In this document: piece by piece, positions 29,590-38,685 of the stretch
Numbering within the stretch: position 1 is the stretch's first letter
Layout: every line of letters begins with the position of its first letter
Source: an uncultured delta proteobacterium
GTDB taxonomy: Bacteria; Myxococcota_A; Polyangia; Polyangiales; Polyangiaceae
Length of the DNA stretch: 64,000 nt
Reading direction: 5' to 3'
Assembly: GCA_963710555.1 (NCBI GenBank)
Contig: CAVQAT010000008.1
Coordinates: forward strand, 2,664,849-2,728,848
The notes under the pieces: model-generated
What the model was told of the DNA's origin: nothing
Seen by the model: only the letters and a program-made list of their open reading frames with translations
Databases searched by the model: none
Program-made: the position numbers and the translations under genes

Positions 29590-30195
29590 TCACCAAAGAT
29601 CGCCGGCATAGATGACAATCGTGATGTCTTTCGCTGACTTGGTGCCTTGATTTTCGATAGAGAATGAAAGGGACCTCTTCCCTTCCGTGCAGGCAATGCT
29701 TGCATCGTGTGCGTGGGCCACCAGGTCAGCTCTGGTTTCTCCCGCCTCAACCAGCAAGTTCAAATCGTTGTTGTCCTCGATGCGCTCTCGTTCGCCGCCG
29801 GTCGGCGCGCCGGCTTCCACCGGCGGATCGACGACTACACGGATCGAGTCGGGGAGCCCAGACTTTCCAGTTTGGTCTTCGCTATTGTAGGCGACGGAGT
29901 CAATGAGCGAACTCCCGGGTTCGAGGCTTTGCCCAATCGTGTAGAGTAGCGATTCGCCATTGCCGTGGAGCAGCAACTCTTTCTTGCCGTTCCAAGTGCC
30001 AGAGAATGCAACCCTGACACCCGGCCCCACGCGCAGGTCGCCCTGGTTTTCGATTTGAAAGCCAATGTCGAGCCGTTCGCTGAGTGTTCCACACGTTGCG
30101 TCGGGGGAGGAGAAGTTGAGTCCAGCGACGACAAGGTGAGGGGCCACAGCTGTTGTTGGTCCCGCAGACAGTGCCAGCCCCGCAGTCATCGTCAT
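29590..30195 (-). CDS. secreted protein with two CARDB-like/Ig-like repeats
   Basis: Signal peptide MTMTAGLALSAGPTTAVA. Two repeated modules of the pattern C..G...L.F.IENQG. Confidence 0.5.
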   Translation of the reverse strand: MTMTAGLALSAGPTTAVAPHLVVAGLNFSSPDATCGTLSERLDIGFQIENQGDLRVGPGVRVAFSGTWNGKKELLLHGNGESLLYTIGQSLEPGSSLIDSVAYNSEDQTGKSGLPDSIRVVVDPPVEAGAPTGGERERIEDNNDLNLLVEAGETRADLVAHAHDASIACTEGKRSLSFSIENQGTKSAKDITIVIYAGDLW

Positions 30196-30887
30196 TAGGA
30201 TTCTTATGGGCTCGGCTGAGATGACTTCGCATGAGCGTTTGAAAGAGTCCGCCGGCGCTGTTGTGTCGCTGTATTATCTAAAAAGATATAAGATTAGAAA
30301 ATTACCTATGCTTGTTCCGGTGCGGCTGCCGCATCTTGCGGAAAAGTGCCTCGAAAAGGCAATCGTCAAACTTGGCACGCGACTCGCATAGGTGTCGCCG
30401 TGATGCCAATCAGGGTGTCCCTCTTCAAGAAGCATGATCCCGATGATGAAACGAACGAACCCCAGAAGTACGCAGCTCTTGAGCTTCGTCCTCGCTTCGG
30501 AAATGGGCTCTCTATTGGGAGAGTATCCTTAGGTTGGCATTCTACTGAGACGAATACGTCGCAGAAGGGCCGTCCTGGGAAACCAAGGCGGCCTTTATCG
30601 CGTCCGGAGGGAGGGGCTTTTCTTTCAGGGGTGCTCTTGCCCTGGCGGGAGAGAACAGAGGGAGGCTCTCCGGTCAGGCATTCTTTGCCCGTCTTGGCCC
30701 GACTTTCGTCGGATCGAGGCGGGCCTTTTTGGGTGAAGGTAGCCATCTCGGCCACATTTCCTTCACGTTGCTTTTTTAGTGCGACGGCGCTCGCTCGGGT
30801 CTCTTTGCAGTCTCCCCTGTGTGTCCGCCTTTCGTGTCCTGAGGAGTGATGGTGTGGTCACCGTCTGTGAAACGTATTCACAACTAA

Positions 30888-30959
30888 TCTCACTGTCATC
30901 GGTTCGATTCCGATCCGCCCGAATGTAACGGGCGGTAGCTCAGTTGGTAGAGCATGAGA
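30888..30959 (+). tRNA. tRNA-like locus with circularly permuted gene order. The 3' half (30888-30922) comes first, then a 6-nt spacer ATGTAA, then the matching 5' half (30929-30959). The anticodon loop is not encoded in linear order.
   Basis: 3' half: TCTCA (39-43), CTGTC (variable loop), T-arm ATCGG-TTCGATT-CCGAT, acceptor 3' strand CCGCCCG, discriminator A. 5' half: acceptor 5' strand CGGGCGG (7/7 complementary to the 3' strand), T8A9, D-arm GCTC-AGTTGGTA-GAGC, A26, then TGAGA (perfectly complementary to TCTCA). Every element is in canonical tRNA register. Confidence 0.45.
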
Positions 30960-31444
30960 ACGGGTCTGAACACCCTTCGCCGCAAGGCAACGCTTTTAGG
31001 TAGCGATTTACCGAAACCAGGAACCCAAATATTCAGCGTCGGCGAGGCGCGTGCGGTCTCTATTTGAGAGAATGCGCAGGTCTTGCTCCGCACCAAAGTC
31101 GACTCCTTTCGCGCGTGCGGAGGATGCTTCTTCCCATCTTGCTCGCATGCTTCTGGTCCATCCTGAAGCGCCGAAACAAGACCGGAAAAAGTCTCCCCGG
31201 GCTGCCCGAATGCAAGACGAAAAGCGTCCTTTCGAGGGTGGGCTTCGTCGAGTCCACACGGTGCGGCGGAGCCTTCGGGCTCGTCCCGTACAGCTCCCCA
31301 CGTCAGGTGTGTGGGTTCCACTTTAATGGCGCGGCTCTGGAGGAGCCCGTTGCCTGGCGTTTCGGCGGCAAAGGTCCGCGAGGCGCTCCTATTCATTGAA
31401 GCAGAGATGCTTGCTGAGAAAACGAATGAAAGGAGATCAGAGAA

Positions 31445-32557
31445 ATGTTTGGATTTTACAAGACTCTACGAGTCAAGCTGAATGAGCGGGTCGTGCTGTT
31501 CAAGAACGGACTGCCGGTGCGAGCATTGGGTCCTGGACGCCATCGGCTTTGGGGGCGCGGCTACACCGAGCAACGCTTCAAGGTCGATGATCTGATCTTC
31601 GACGTGTACTCAGAAGTCGCGGCCGTTTTGCCGAGTGACTGGTACCGTGAGATTCAGATCGCCGATCAGGAACGAGCAGTGATCTTTGCCGGTGGTCGTC
31701 CGGTCGAGTTTCTTTGCTCGGGCCTGGCTCGATTCTGGACAATAGATCCTTCCGTGCGGGTCGAGCTGTTCGACACGACTACGGCGTTTCCTTCTCTGTC
31801 CGCAGAGCTGGAAGCGGTTGTGCCAACTGGGCAATACACTCAGGCGACGATTCAGTCCCACGAACGTGGCATGCTCAAGGTGTGTGGAAAGCTAGAAAGT
31901 GTGCTTGAGCCGGGGCTTTACCGATTCTGGAATACCGTCAATCGTCCGGTAGTCATCGACAAGATCGATGTCCGCCGAACAGAGCTTTCGATCACCGGAC
32001 AGGAACTGATGACTCGAGATAAGGTGACGCTTCGGCTCAGCATTTCTGTTGAGTACGCGGTGGTGGATGTCGCATTGAGCCGCCGGGTGACCAGCGTTCG
32101 TGATGCGGTGTACGTCGCTGCGCAGCTCGCAGCCCGTGACTATGTCGCGGGGGTGACCCTTGATGCTTTGCTTGAGGGGCGAGACTCTCTCACTCGAGCA
32201 ATGAGCGCTCAGGTATTGCCTGCCGCTCAGGCCATCGGGGTCAGTGTTGAGCACATCGGTGTGAAGGACGTGGTCCTGCCCGGTGAAATGAAGGTGCTTC
32301 TCAACCGCGTCATTGAGGCGGAAAAGGAAGCCCAGGCCAACGTGATTCTGCGTCGTGAGGAAACGGCCGCAACGCGGTCTCTTGCCAACACGGCGAAGGT
32401 GATGGCCCAGGAACCGGTCCTGCTCCGACTCAAGGAATTGGAAGCCATGAAGGAAATCGCTGAGAATATCAGTGAGGTCCGGGTGGTCATTGGCGCTGAG
32501 GGCTTTGCGTCCCTGGTGCCCGCCCAGTTTCTCGGTGGGGCCGTAACTCAGAAGTAG
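31445..32557 (+). CDS. SPFH/band-7 (stomatin/prohibitin/flotillin-like) domain protein
   Basis: 370 aa. Central band-7 region (KDKVTLRLSISVEYAVVD ... ) followed by a coiled-coil with EAEKEAQANVILRREETAA. Confidence 0.7.
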   Translation: MFGFYKTLRVKLNERVVLFKNGLPVRALGPGRHRLWGRGYTEQRFKVDDLIFDVYSEVAAVLPSDWYREIQIADQERAVIFAGGRPVEFLCSGLARFWTIDPSVRVELFDTTTAFPSLSAELEAVVPTGQYTQATIQSHERGMLKVCGKLESVLEPGLYRFWNTVNRPVVIDKIDVRRTELSITGQELMTRDKVTLRLSISVEYAVVDVALSRRVTSVRDAVYVAAQLAARDYVAGVTLDALLEGRDSLTRAMSAQVLPAAQAIGVSVEHIGVKDVVLPGEMKVLLNRVIEAEKEAQANVILRREETAATRSLANTAKVMAQEPVLLRLKELEAMKEIAENISEVRVVIGAEGFASLVPAQFLGGAVTQK

Positions 32558-38005: not shown

Positions 38006-38685
38006 ATTTGGTGCACCAAAAAAGAAGGGGGGAGCGAACGGCTCAAACGCTTGTCTCCATGAACTCGTGTCCAGACGGCATCAATAGAGGCTATTTCCTG
38101 CACTAGAGACACGCTGGATCATGGGCCGACAAGCGCCACTTCGCAATGTTGGGTCTTGTGGGCGCGGGTAGGTGAGCATGCTTAGCCCTTGGATTTTCGA
38201 GAAACCCGCAGGGAAGCGCAGCGTTGCCGAGGATGTTCTTTCATCTCATCCCATGGGGAGAACTCTGTACGTCGCCTCATGTCACTCGCTGGCAAAGTTT
38301 TGGAAATAGAGACGACGTGCGTGGAGCCGCGTGGAGCACGTTGAAAACACATGAGAGAGCCGTCTGGCCGCGCGATCGCAGACGTCGTCCCGCAGCCATC
38401 GCTGGCGCAGTTTACACAGGCTAAGTAGCACCTGCTTCAGCAATAGCTGAAGTCGCAAGGTTGACGGATTCGCTGGGAGTTGCGGCGATGCGGATGTTCG
38501 CAAGAGCGATGCGGACCATGGCGGGTTTCATCATGACTTTCCTTGAGCGGTTCCTTCGGTTGGGCAGCGAAGAACGAATGCCTTATTCCATGATTCTCCG
38601 CAGTTTAGAGCGGTGGGGGGATAGGCGACATGGTGCACGTTTGTGTCGCCCAGCTAGGTCAGTTGATTCTGCGCCCCATTGGTCG

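What the first reader, a model, noticed from the sequence alone, without database searches (positions are those of the whole stretch)
30888..30959. Circularly permuted tRNA-like gene: a perfect tRNA 3' half lies 6 nt upstream of its own 5' half
Read in order, the + strand gives TCTCA (anticodon-stem 3' strand), CTGTC (5-nt variable loop), ATCGG-TTCGATT-CCGAT (canonical T-arm with T54-T55-C56-R57-A58), CCGCCCG (acceptor 3' strand) and A (discriminator). Then comes ATGTAA. Then CGGGCGG (acceptor 5' strand, 7/7 complementary), TA (U8-A9), GCTC-AGTTGGTA-GAGC (canonical D-arm with A14, G18G19, A21), A26 and TGAGA (exact complement of the upstream TCTCA). Both halves belong to the same tRNA species and every element is in register, but the order is 3' half then 5' half, and no anticodon loop is encoded contiguously. 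No complete linear copy flanks it: there is no D-arm upstream of the 3' half and no T-arm downstream of the 5' half within several hundred bp. This topology is known for circularly permuted nuclear tRNA genes of Cyanidioschyzon merolae and a few other algae and archaea. To my knowledge it has not been described for a bacterial chromosome, where no BHB-splicing endonuclease exists. C1:G72, A73 and a GGG triplet directly 3' of the anticodon-stem 5' strand (TGAGA-ACGGGT) would fit a tRNA-Pro(GGG) identity, but U33 is missing, so the anticodon assignment is unsafe. Alternative explanations are a scar of tandem tRNA duplication followed by loss of the outer halves, a relic of site-specific integration or excision at a tRNA gene, or a misassembly. 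A nearly direct repeat (TCTGTGAAAC at 30864-30873 and TCTGAACAC at 30965-30973) flanks the unit. A spurious antisense ORF (30896..31396, C-terminus LYQLSYRP) overlaps it, as is typical for tRNA antisense.
Basis: partly seen in the sequence, partly recalled or inferred. Interest (0 to 1): 0.8.

Follow-up and report, generated by a model that had tools for sequence, protein, structure and literature searches.

The report
Y-RNA-like tRNA mimic beside SPFH gene
The "back-to-front tRNA" is real, but it is the tRNA-shaped core of a conserved small non-coding RNA of the bacterial Y-RNA (YrlA) type, a class already described as resembling circularly permuted tRNAs, here paired with a Band-7/SPFH gene instead of the usual Ro60 gene.

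Summary
At 30888-30959 (+) a T-arm, a 7-bp acceptor stem capped by a 7-nt loop and a D-arm lie in that order, closed by the 5-bp stem TCTCA/TGAGA. It is not a permuted tRNA gene, a recombination scar or a misassembly. It is the tRNA-like module of a ~175-nt structured RNA (about 30832-31006). The only Rfam hit is YrlA, the bacterial Y RNA-like family (37 bits, E=3e-6, below the 69-bit gathering score), whose consensus has this same module order. The literature already says YrlA RNAs "resemble circularly permuted tRNAs". Six sequence variants sit at the same place upstream of the orthologous SPFH/Band-7 gene. Their stems keep pairing through compensatory changes, and the acceptor stem is always 7 bp with four unrelated sequences. 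Across 119 distinct capped-acceptor elements, 95.7% of cells pair against 64.7% in shuffles. Unlike classical YrlA, no Ro60 (rsr) gene is nearby and the Ro60-binding stem is not recognisable. The relatives carry rtcBA-rtcR RNA-repair genes next door, which the window lacks. "YrlA next to a Band-7 protein in RtcB systems" was predicted in 2016. Verdict: a new member of a known kind, of modest interest. Its function is unproven; it is probably a tRNA mimic acting with the SPFH protein in the response to tRNA damage.

The parts
30888..30959 (+). tRNA-like core (the reported finding). Closing 'anticodon-like' stem TCTCA/TGAGA (30888-92 / 30955-59); variable loop CTGTC; T-arm 30898-30914; acceptor 3' strand 30915-21; cap loop AATGTAA 30922-28; acceptor 5' strand 30929-35; UA; D-arm 30938-53; A26 30954.
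   Evidence: sequence and folds; compensatory changes in 5/7 acceptor, 2/5 T-stem and 1/4 D-stem pairs among five distinct clade sequences; family-wide 95.7% paired, covariation 0.567 against 0.132 shuffled.
30832..30847 (+). Candidate 5' strand of a terminal stem (UCGU-GU-CCUGAG-G-AGU), lying within the block TTCGTGTCCTGAGGAG (30831-46), which is identical in window, L179, L180, L209 and L182 and differs by one base in L205.
   Evidence: block conservation; pairs with 30992-31006 in the MFE and centroid folds. No covariation is available because the block barely varies, so this is inferred, not shown.
30848..30865 (+). Small hairpin GAUGGUG-UGGU-CACCGUC.
   Evidence: Nearly invariant in relatives, so conserved but uninformative for pairing.
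30866..30882 (+). 5' hairpin (U)GUGAA-ACGUA-UUCAC(A). It carries the remnant of the YrlA 5' motif GNCGAAN0-1G (exact as GGCGAACG in L180 and L209; GUGAAACG in the window).
   Evidence: 3 of 5 pairs change on both sides (GUGAA/UUCAC, GGCGA/UCGUC, GCGAA/UUCGC); present in the folds.
30962..30975 (+). 3' hairpin GGGU-CUGAAC-ACCC. In relatives it is a 4-5 bp stem with a 7-nt anticodon-loop-like loop CUUUNAA.
   Evidence: loops CUUUAAA (L179), CUUUUAA (L180, L209, L205), CUUUGAA (L189), CCUAAAAA (L182). The stems differ (GGGU/ACCC, AAGG/CCUU, AGGG/CCCU, ACGAC/GUCGU) and always pair.
30979..30988 (+). Mini-hairpin GCC-GCAA-GGC.
   Evidence: Conserved as GCC-GNNA-GGC in 5 of 6 clade members.
30992..31006 (+). 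Candidate 3' strand of the terminal stem (GCU-UUUAGG-UA-GCGA). Alternatively a local hairpin CGCU-UUUAGGU-AGCG followed by AUUUAC, a weak terminator. Probable 3' end of the RNA.
   Evidence: In L182 a separate strong terminator hairpin (CGGCCC-CGUG-GGGCCG-UUUAC) occupies this position.
30733..30766 (+). Upstream hairpin GUGAAGG-(19-20 nt loop)-CCUUCAC. In L180, L209, L182 and L205 the homologous hairpin is a T-arm look-alike (AGAGGG-UUCGAYY-CCCUCU). It may be a second, YrlB-like RNA or part of a common precursor.
   Evidence: alignment A5.
31445..32557 (+). SPFH/Band-7 protein gene (370 aa), the conserved partner. It lies 330-480 nt downstream of the RNA on the same strand in all six clade variants and in the independent contigs L189 and L191.
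   Evidence: PF01145, E=7e-25.

Best explanation
The element is the tRNA-like 'effector' module of a ~175-nt non-coding RNA of the bacterial Y-RNA-like (YrlA) class. SHOWN: one transcript-sized unit folds into a T-arm, an acceptor stem closed by a loop, and a D-arm, held together by a 5-bp stem that stands where a tRNA's anticodon stem would be. This core sits among small hairpins. INFERRED: the whole unit is enclosed by a bulged terminal stem. The RNA is the Band-7-associated version of the class. It is encoded just upstream of an SPFH/Band-7 gene rather than next to Ro60 (rsr), and in the closest relatives it sits within a few kb of the rtcA-rtcB ligase/cyclase operon and its sensor-activator rtcR. 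The window's genome has no rtc genes at this locus but keeps the RNA + SPFH pair. INFERRED mechanism: the RNA adopts a tRNA L-shape (shown by crystallography for Salmonella YrlA) and is recognised by tRNA-handling proteins. Together with the SPFH protein it probably acts in the response to tRNA damage, either as a cofactor or scaffold for repair, or as an uncleavable decoy for anticodon nucleases. The acceptor stem is exactly 7 bp in every variant, the discriminator is A in five of six variants, and two relatives encode ACCA at the start of the cap. By analogy with M. smegmatis YrlA, RNase P may therefore cut at the acceptor 5' end and CCA may be added, giving a two-piece tRNA-like particle. 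That step is a prediction, not a result.
For: Only Rfam match in the region: YrlA RF02553, full length 1-114, 37.2 bits, E=3e-6, with the same T / capped-acceptor / D order. The relatives' copies hit YrlA at 31-42 bits. The published definition of YrlA gives the same anatomy, and the class is described as resembling circularly permuted tRNAs (PMC4201824; 10.1101/312249). One genome-collection scan gave 58 loci, of which 56 are capped-acceptor elements; 34 of the 58 have Ro60 (TROVE+vWA_Ro60) and 15 have RtcB within 8 kb. Six sequence variants lie at the syntenic site upstream of the orthologous SPFH gene, from independent assemblies. They show compensatory changes in the acceptor, T, D and 5'-hairpin stems. 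Covariance-model alignment of 119 distinct elements: 95.7% paired against 64.7% shuffled; covariation 0.567 against 0.132 (0/500 shuffles) and 0.05-0.11 in slid controls. The full RNA folds better than shuffles (z=-2.6). Relatives L179, L180, L182 and L209 carry rtcB/rtcR (rtcA also in L179 and L180; pcfJ in L179 and L182), plus rlaP in L209, next to the RNA-SPFH pair; RtcR is an equivalog at 788 bits. Independent SPFH + tRNA-like RNA pairs occur in L189 (permuted type) and L191 (linear b7a-tRNA type). Burroughs & Aravind 2016, as cited in 10.1101/312249, predicted Band-7 + tRNA-like RNA in RtcB systems and noted YrlA next to Band-7. [quoted passage not shown]
Against: The Rfam score is about half the family's gathering score, and only the tRNA-like core is matched in most copies. 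No rsr or rtcB lies in the 64-kb window, and no rsr lies within about 10 kb in any relative. The YrlA 5' motif is degenerate in the window and pairs locally instead of with the 3' end, so a Ro60-binding helix is not supported. The terminal stem rests on thermodynamics only. No promoter was identified: sigma54 promoters are clear upstream of rtcB but absent upstream of the intact RNAs (sigma70 scan empty). There are no expression data. The original 2016 paper could not be read, so the Band-7 claim is second-hand. All functional statements are inference from neighbourhood and analogy.
Confidence: 0.85

Rival explanations
1. A genuine circularly permuted tRNA gene: the transcript is circularised or trans-joined at the anticodon side and opened at the acceptor end to give a functional decoding tRNA, as in Cyanidioschyzon merolae.
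For: The order is 3' half then 5' half, with all canonical tRNA positions in register. The acceptor stem is 7 bp, the discriminator A is kept in five of six variants, and two relatives encode ACCA at the start of the cap. RtcB, the ligase that joins tRNA halves in archaea and animals, is encoded nearby in relatives.
Against: No anticodon-loop halves exist. The closing stem is followed directly by linkers and conserved hairpins. ARAGORN reports nothing. The acceptor stem-loop is replaced wholesale between RNAs that are 85/86 identical elsewhere, which is incompatible with a fixed amino-acid identity. The same topology is the norm in hundreds of YrlA RNAs that remain single closed molecules. The window itself has no rtcB. 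Bacteria lack the BHB splicing endonuclease (established knowledge).
Confidence: 0.02
2. A dead scar: two tandem copies of one tRNA gene that lost their outer halves, or a relic of site-specific integration or excision at a tRNA gene.
For: Tandem tRNAs do mimic this pattern: they are the known false positives of the YrlA model and made up most hits of my loose pattern scans. Relatives L180 and L209 carry a 20-21-gene tRNA array 1-2 kb upstream, and L180 has a phage-type integrase downstream.
Against: The element is kept at the same site in six variants. Pairing is maintained by double changes in all four stems, and the 7-bp acceptor length is strictly preserved. It is present in genomes without the tRNA array (window, L179, L182). 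The flanking hairpins are conserved too. No integrase or att-like repeat flanks it in the window.
Confidence: 0.02
3. Primarily a cis-acting leader of the SPFH mRNA: the tRNA-like fold is co-transcribed with the SPFH gene and serves as a processing (RNase P) or stability signal rather than as a free-standing RNA.
For: It always lies on the same strand 330-480 nt upstream of SPFH. Apart from the weak-terminator reading of 30992-31006 there is no clear terminator in five of the six variants, and no promoter was found between the RNA and SPFH. The spacer is non-coding yet 67-87% conserved. Y RNAs in Salmonella and M. smegmatis are themselves cut out of operon transcripts.
Against: L182 has a strong terminator hairpin right after the RNA. 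The module is homologous to trans-acting YrlA RNAs. Co-transcription and a trans function are not mutually exclusive.
Confidence: 0.1
4. Assembly artefact (a collapsed or mis-joined tRNA array).
For: None beyond the unusual order.
Against: The same arrangement appears in independent assemblies from ENA, NCBI, Logan and JGI (L179, L180/L181, L182-184, L205, L209/L210).
Confidence: 0.005

Closest known systems
YrlA (Y RNA-like A), Rfam RF02553; Chen et al. 2014 (PMC4201824); crystal structure of the S. Typhimurium tRNA-like domain, Wang et al. 2018 (10.1101/312249)
   Same: Same module order: closing stem 5' strand, variable region, T-arm, loop-capped acceptor stem, U8-A9, D-arm, closing stem 3' strand. 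Same conserved T-loop and D-loop nucleotides. One classical member (L188) even has the same closing stem UCUCA/UGAGA. Relatives show the same genomic association with rtcBA/rtcR. The 7-bp acceptor stem matches that of M. smegmatis YrlA.
   Different: No rsr within 64 kb (classical YrlA: within 4 kb, same strand). The score is half the gathering threshold. The Ro60-binding 5'/3' helix is not recognisable, and the 5' motif sits in a local hairpin. There are extra hairpins, including an anticodon-loop-like one 3' of the core. There is no V stem-loop (a 5-nt variable loop instead). The partner gene is SPFH/Band-7.
[quoted passage not shown]
   Same: A tRNA-like RNA directly upstream of a Band-7 domain gene, with RtcB and RtcR nearby in relatives. 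L191 shows the linear b7a-tRNA form next to a homologous SPFH gene (40% identity).
   Different: b7a-tRNA is described as strongly resembling an authentic tRNA (linear order, anticodon loop). The window's RNA is the permuted, capped YrlA form, and the window has no rtcB at this locus. I could not check whether this Myxococcota lineage or its flanking architecture was in the 2016 data set.
Circularly permuted tRNA genes of Cyanidioschyzon merolae and other algae and archaea
   Same: The 3' half is encoded upstream of the 5' half, and the acceptor strands are joined by a short linker.
   Different: Those genes yield decoding tRNAs through a circular intermediate made at a BHB motif. Here there is no anticodon loop, no BHB, no conserved acceptor identity, and no such splicing endonuclease in bacteria.
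Two-piece (permuted) tmRNA genes
   Same: Permuted order, with a T-arm and acceptor 3' strand upstream of the acceptor 5' strand. There is a weak partial Rfam hit to cyano_tmRNA (24 bits).
   Different: ARAGORN finds no tmRNA. There is no G3:U70 alanine identity and no tag reading frame, and a canonical D-arm is present.

Membership tests
YrlA / bacterial Y RNA-like (RF02553; Chen et al. 2014) | T stem-loop, then loop-capped acceptor-like stem, then D stem-loop, with tRNA-like invariant nucleotides, closed by an anticodon-stem-like helix | tested here: met
   covariation.
YrlA / bacterial Y RNA-like (RF02553; Chen et al. 2014) | Reaches Rfam's curated gathering score (69 bits) | tested here: not met
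   Window 37.2 bits (no hit at gathering threshold). Relatives and L189 score 31.5-42.0 bits, mostly over model positions 23-88 only.
YrlA / bacterial Y RNA-like (RF02553; Chen et al. 2014) | GNCGAAN0-1G motif near the 5' end | tested here: inconclusive
   Exact in L180 and L209 (GGCGAACG). One extra base in L182 and L205 (GGCGAAACG, UGCGAAACG). Degenerate in window and L179 (UGUGAAACG, UGUGAAAGG).
YrlA / bacterial Y RNA-like (RF02553; Chen et al. 2014) | Ro60-binding helix formed by the 5' motif with the 3' end of the RNA | tested here: not met
   The motif pairs with the adjacent UUCNC in a local hairpin, with 3 of 5 pairs changing on both sides. A different terminal stem is predicted by energy only.
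YrlA / bacterial Y RNA-like (RF02553; Chen et al. 2014) | Encoded within 4 kb of rsr (Ro60, TROVE domain), same strand | tested here: not met
   No TROVE among all 30 ORFs of 300 aa or more. tblastn with 34 Rsr sequences against the 64-kb window: best E=0.07. No TROVE gene in the 14-21 kb held for L179, L180, L182 and L209. Whether rsr exists elsewhere in the genome cannot be tested.
YrlA / bacterial Y RNA-like (RF02553; Chen et al. 2014) | Bound by Rsr; modified by TruB and DusA | not testable with these tools
   Needs immunoprecipitation and modification mapping.
Band-7-associated tRNA-like RNA of RtcB repair systems (Burroughs & Aravind 2016, via 10.1101/312249) | tRNA-like RNA gene adjacent to a Band-7 domain protein gene | tested here: met
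   SPFH gene 31445-32557 (PF01145). The same pairing occurs in six clade variants plus L189 and L191.
Band-7-associated tRNA-like RNA of RtcB repair systems (Burroughs & Aravind 2016, via 10.1101/312249) | RtcB ligase encoded in the same neighbourhood | tested here: not met
   Absent from the window. Present 2-8 kb away in L179, L180, L182 and L209. The window is collinear with L179 from 30237 on; L179 has pcfJ-rtcR-rtcBA upstream of that point and the window has unrelated sequence.
Band-7-associated tRNA-like RNA of RtcB repair systems (Burroughs & Aravind 2016, via 10.1101/312249) | RNA 'strongly resembles an authentic tRNA' (b7a-tRNA proper: linear order, anticodon loop) | tested here: not met
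   ARAGORN and the Rfam tRNA model are negative in the window. In contrast L191 has an Rfam tRNA hit of 50 bits next to its SPFH gene. The window RNA is the 'YrlA next to Band-7' variant.
Circularly permuted tRNA gene (C. merolae type) | 3' half upstream of 5' half of one tRNA | tested here: met
Circularly permuted tRNA gene (C. merolae type) | Termini supply the two parts of an anticodon loop and a bulge-helix-bulge motif for circularisation | tested here: not met
   The closing stem is flanked by the linkers AACUAA and AC and then conserved hairpins. No loop halves or BHB appear in any fold. No dedicated BHB finder was available.
Circularly permuted tRNA gene (C. merolae type) | Sequence constraint of a decoding tRNA (stable acceptor identity among close relatives) | tested here: not met
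   There are four unrelated acceptor stems among six variants. L180 and L209 are 85/86 identical 5' of it but 9/21 within it.
Two-piece (permuted) tmRNA | Detected by ARAGORN's permuted-tmRNA search; G3:U70; tag ORF | tested here: not met
   (none). The acceptor CGGGCGG/CCGCCCG has no G:U.

The most novel reading that the evidence does not exclude
The Band-7-associated capped tRNA mimics form a distinct subfamily that has dispensed with Ro60. The SPFH protein is the RNA's direct partner, which is why the pair persists in the window without any rtc gene. [quoted passage not shown] Its swappable acceptor stem-loop would be under diversifying selection, as expected for a decoy or sensor in an arms race with tRNA-targeting nucleases.
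Probability: 0.15. Interest if true: 0.6.

Novelty: new member of a known kind. Interest (0 to 1): 0.3.

Why it matters
This shows that the striking "permuted tRNA in a bacterium" is a known RNA class that standard annotation misses: no hit at Rfam's gathering threshold, none from ARAGORN. That is useful as a caution and for improving the YrlA model, which currently requires the Ro60-binding stem. The role of the tRNA-like domain of bacterial Y RNAs, and of the Band-7 proteins predicted to work with tRNA-like RNAs in RtcB repair systems, is still unknown. This lineage offers a stripped-down case, an RNA plus an SPFH gene with no rsr nearby and, in the window, no rtc genes. A direct RNA-SPFH partnership could be tested here. 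The natural series of acceptor-stem swaps at constant 7-bp length also shows which features are under selection.

Tried and rejected
- ARAGORN and Rfam at gathering threshold found nothing. Only the relaxed Rfam search gave the lead.
I therefore tightened the pattern (C1:G72 plus a short cap) for the single genome scan.
- The source genome is not in genome contigs, and neither the window's SPFH protein nor its close relative P0121 is on record as an exact sequence.
- The first metagenome scan (invariant 5' block plus T-loop) found nothing. The second gave one clade member and two independent SPFH-linked RNAs among tandem-tRNA noise.
- MAFFT could not align the acceptor/D region or the 5' hairpin consistently. 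I replaced it with a manual structural parse and an Infernal alignment.
- Sigma54 promoter hypothesis for the RNA: GG-N10-GC is present only in L180 and L182 at the start of the 5' hairpin, and a systematic scan found none upstream of the intact RNAs although every rtcB has one. Rejected. The sigma70 consensus scan was empty.
- Long-range pairing of the GNCGAA-like motif with the 3' CGCCG stretch, as in the Rfam alignment, gives 5-6 of 7 pairs without compensatory support. It was rejected in favour of the local hairpin.
- Considered and rejected as coding: the antisense ORF 30896-31396 and the 433-nt spacer.
- None of the 58 genome YrlA loci has this SPFH gene, so the Band-7 link is not general to YrlA.
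- PADLOC has no model for the SPFH, PcfJ or RlaP proteins.
- Burroughs & Aravind 2016 and the 2020 Annual Review on Ro60/Y RNAs are not in the library.
Full report
**1. The observation**

On the + strand the order is:

- TCTCA (30888-92) and CTGTC
- T-arm ATCGG-TTCGATT-CCGAT (30898-30914)
- CCGCCCG (30915-21) and the 7-nt cap AATGTAA (30922-28)
- CGGGCGG (30929-35) and TA
- D-arm GCTC-AGTTGGTA-GAGC (30938-53), then A and TGAGA (30955-59)

A degenerate pattern for this layout occurs once in the window and never in 100 shuffles. RNAfold returns the capped cloverleaf as the minimum-energy structure. ARAGORN finds no tRNA or tmRNA anywhere in the 64 kb, and Rfam at gathering threshold finds nothing.

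**2. First lead**

With Rfam's threshold relaxed, the region 30864-30986 matches one family over its full length: YrlA, "Y RNA-like" (RF02553), at 37.2 bits and E=3e-6, against a gathering score of 69. The model's consensus structure is a T hairpin, then a capped stem, then UA, then a D hairpin, all enclosed by outer helices. That is the "permuted" order.

The founding paper (PMC4201824) defines YrlA by these modules plus three further features: a GNCGAAN0-1G motif near the 5' end, a location within 4 kb of the Ro60 gene rsr, and tRNA-type modifications. It reports that the M. smegmatis YrlA, which has a 7-bp acceptor stem, is cut by RNase P and receives CCA in vivo. It also warns that tandem tRNAs are the model's false positives. 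[quoted passage not shown]

**3. How common the layout is**

A loose pattern on viral contigs returned a mix of tandem tRNAs and about 15 true capped-acceptor elements. A tighter pattern on one genome per species returned 58 loci from Actinomycetota, Bacteroidota, Planctomycetota, Pseudomonadota, Cyanobacteria, Myxococcota and others. Of these, 56 have a self-complementary capped acceptor (6-7 of 7 pairs) and two are tandem tRNAs.

Clustering the ORFs in these loci and scanning representatives showed that the commonest neighbours are Ro60 (TROVE + vWA_Ro60, 34 of 58 loci) and RtcB (15 of 58).

**4. What is different here**

The window has no Ro60 and no RtcB. None of the 30 ORFs of 300 aa or more has a TROVE or RtcB domain, and tblastn with all 34 Rsr and 17 RtcB ORF sequences found nothing (best E=0.07, over the RNA itself). 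The gene 485 nt downstream on the same strand encodes an SPFH/Band-7 protein (31445-32557).

**5. Relatives and synteny**

Homologues of the SPFH protein at 96, 87, 85, 81 and ~70% identity led to independent assemblies: L179, L180/181, L209/210, L182-184 and, from the metagenome scan, L205.

- All carry the element at the same place and on the same strand.
- In L179, L180, L182 and L209 the pair lies 2-8 kb from rtcB and a divergently transcribed rtcR (an equivalog at 788 bits). rtcA is also present in L179 and L180, pcfJ in L179 and L182, and two rlaP genes follow the SPFH gene in L209.
- The window is collinear with L179 from 30237 onward. Upstream of that point L179 has pcfJ-rtcR-rtcBA and the window has unrelated sequence.
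- A more distant SPFH orthologue (65%, L185) has no element, and a 69% one (L211/212) has a decayed version: the 5' block and half a T-arm, with no acceptor or D-arm.

**6. The RNA is under selection for structure**

| Helix (five distinct sequences) | Pairing kept | Pairs changed on both sides |
|---|---|---|
| Acceptor stem | 7/7, 7/7, 7/7, 7/7, 6/7 | 5 of 7 |
| T stem | 5/5 in four, 4/5 in one | 2 of 5 |
| D stem | 4/4 in all | 1 of 4 |
| 5' hairpin | 5/5 in all | 3 of 5 |

A sixth variant (L209) has yet another acceptor stem, GCCCAAG/CUUGGGC, again 7/7.

A covariance model seeded from the clade found one copy in the window (131 bits). It matched all clade members over the full length (66-138 bits) and classical YrlA loci at 20-65 bits, often 2-3 copies per locus. 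On the resulting alignment of 119 distinct sequences:

- 95.7% of cells form standard pairs, against 64.7% in shuffles.
- The covariation score is 0.567, against 0.132 in shuffles (0 of 500 reach it) and 0.05-0.11 when partners are slid by 1-3 columns.
- All 7 acceptor pairs and all 5 closing-stem pairs change on both sides.

That alignment is fitted to the model, so it leans towards the structure. The slid controls and the manual parse argue that the signal is real. This refutes the scar, integration-relic and misassembly explanations.

**7. Full anatomy**

Shown by conservation and compensatory change:

- the 5' hairpin (30866-82)
- the tRNA-like core (30888-30959)
- a 3' hairpin (30962-75)

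Conserved but uninformative for pairing:

- a small hairpin (30848-65)
- a GCC-GNNA-GGC mini-hairpin (30979-88)

Predicted by energy only: a terminal stem between the conserved block UCGU-GU-CCUGAG-G-AGU (30832-47) and GCU-UUUAGG-UA-GCGA (30992-31006), with a bulge and a 2x2 internal loop. This is the general design of a Y RNA. The 187-nt fold has z=-2.6 against shuffles, and the terminal stem appears in both the MFE and centroid structures.

The 5' hairpin contains what is left of the YrlA 5' motif (exact GGCGAACG in L180 and L209). Here it pairs locally, not with the 3' end, so the recognised Ro60-binding helix is not supported. Consistent with that, Rfam matches most copies only through model positions 23-88.

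**8. Band-7 link**

[quoted passage not shown] I could not obtain the 2016 paper.

My data support the association independently. Two unrelated metagenome contigs have a tRNA-like RNA 280-370 nt upstream of a homologous SPFH gene on the same strand:

- L189 (SPFH 60% identical) has the permuted YrlA-type form, with an Rfam YrlA hit of 42 bits.
- L191 (SPFH 40% identical) has two abutting linear tRNA-like genes, with an Rfam tRNA hit of 50 bits.

**9. Mechanism**

Shown: a conserved, structured, tRNA-shaped RNA encoded with an SPFH gene, and in relatives close to the RtcB/RtcA/RtcR repair module.

Established elsewhere:

- The YrlA core folds into a tRNA L-shape and is a substrate for TruB and DusA.
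- RtcR is switched on by tRNA halves ending in a cyclic phosphate. YrlA's tRNA-like domain is not cut by the anticodon nuclease and may act as a competitive inhibitor of it (PMC7790460).

Inferred: this RNA is a tRNA mimic that works with the SPFH protein in the tRNA-damage response, as a decoy or a cofactor.

Predicted: RNase P cleavage at 30928/30929 and CCA addition. The grounds are that the acceptor stem is exactly 7 bp in every variant, the discriminator is A in five of six, and the caps of L182 and L205 begin with ACCA. Caps starting NCCA are enriched among the genome-scan elements (5 of 56 against 0.9 expected; P~0.002, not corrected for relatedness).

The promoter is unknown. Every rtcB has a clear sigma54 promoter, but the intact RNAs do not.

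**10. Unexplained**

The acceptor stem-loop behaves like a swappable cassette. L180 and L209 are 85/86 and 72/78 identical on either side of it but 9/21 within it. L182 and L205 share it (20/22) while their flanks have diverged (74/87 and 55/80).

The 3' hairpin has an anticodon-loop-like 7-nt loop CUUUNAA in 5 of 7 SPFH-linked members. From my own knowledge, not tested here, CUUUUAA is the anticodon-loop sequence of tRNA-Lys(UUU). L191's linear RNA is also Lys(UUU)-like. The window's copy is one base short (CUGAAC).

**11. Verdict**

The element is a new, unannotated member of a known kind: a YrlA-class tRNA mimic in its Band-7-associated form, lacking a recognisable Ro60-binding module and any nearby rsr. 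Interest is modest. A Y-RNA specialist would not be surprised by the topology, but the Ro60-less RNA + SPFH pair, the acceptor cassette swapping and the anticodon-loop-like hairpin are worth a follow-up.

Noticed in passing
L180 4845-8385 and L209 4181-7083: An array of 20-21 tRNA genes (Tyr, Lys x2, Asn, Glu, Asp, Val, Phe, Pro, His, Ala, Leu, Thr, Gly, Arg x2, Gln, Ser, Ile and others) lies between rtcR and the HNH gene / tRNA-like RNA / SPFH gene. The window, L179 and L182 have no such array. A near-complete spare tRNA set next to an RNA-repair operon suggests a tRNA-damage island.
   Followed up: partly
window 30733-30766; L180, L209, L182 and L205 (alignment A5): About 65 nt upstream of the RNA's 5' block (about 95 nt before the 5' hairpin), the relatives have an isolated T-arm look-alike hairpin (AGAGGG-UUCGAYY-CCCUCU; GGAGG/CCUCC in L205). 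The window and L179 keep the stem position but with a different sequence (GUGAAGG/CCUUCAC) and a 19-20-nt loop. This may be a second, YrlB-like RNA or part of a shared precursor.
   Followed up: partly
window ~30190-30237 versus L179 525-8671: The window has no counterpart of an ~8-kb segment that in its 96% relative holds the rest of a CARDB/FG-GAP gene, rtcA, rtcB, rtcR and pcfJ. The window's CARDB-like ORF (29590-30195, minus strand) appears truncated at this junction. The direction of the event (deletion or insertion) was not established.
   Followed up: partly
L180 versus L209, and L182 versus L205 (acceptor stem-loop of the RNA): The acceptor stem-loop is exchanged as a unit between otherwise near-identical RNAs (9/21 identity inside, 85/86 and 72/78 outside), and is shared between RNAs whose flanks have diverged. 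Its length is always 7 bp.
   Followed up: partly
L191 1768-1912 (minus strand): Two abutting tRNA-like genes (ARAGORN: Met-CAT and Lys-TTT; Rfam tRNA 50 bits for the second, whose anticodon loop is CCUUUAA with C at position 33) lie directly upstream of an SPFH gene that is 40% identical to the window's. This is probably the 'b7a-tRNA' of Burroughs & Aravind.
   Followed up: partly
L211 1045-1060 and ~1060-1400; L212: In the 69% SPFH relative, a strong sigma54 promoter (TGGCACGTGTTTCGCA) directly follows a truncated sigma54-activator gene. It precedes a T-arm-like hairpin and then a decayed copy of the RNA (5' block and T-arm 5' half only). The homologous window stretch CTTGGCCCGACTTTCGTCGG (30692-30711) has lost the -12 GC.
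   Followed up: partly
L127, L138, L145, L151, L165, L167, L169 (Myxococcota loci from the genome scan): Seven of the eight Myxococcota capped-acceptor elements have no rsr within the 1.4-8 kb held, and no SPFH of this type either. Only the Anaeromyxobacteraceae locus L139 has rsr and rtcB. L127 and L145 still carry a classical GCCGAAG 5' motif. Their partners were not examined.
   Followed up: no
L134, L188, L174, L197, L131, L152 and other classical YrlA loci: The covariance model finds two or three tandem capped tRNA-like modules per locus in many classical YrlA loci, in line with the multiple Y RNAs reported near rsr.
   Followed up: no
L179 16620-17171 and 18720-19973: The closest relative also encodes an RNA 2'-phosphotransferase (PF01885, Tpt1/KptA type) and a second Band-7 protein a few kb downstream of the shared kinase/TPR/lectin genes. 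The window diverges from L179 just before this point (collinearity ends near 38331).
   Followed up: no
window 30680-30735 (+) and 30540-30598 (+): There are two terminator-like hairpins upstream of the RNA: GCCCG...CGGGC plus a U-run, and GGGCCGUCCUGGGAAACCAAGGCGGCCUUUAU, which gave weak chance-level Rfam hits (RcsR1, CC2171). The stretch 30372-30606 is homologous to the region just downstream of rtcR in L180 and of pcfJ in L182, so it may be a remnant of the rtc-locus flank.
   Followed up: partly
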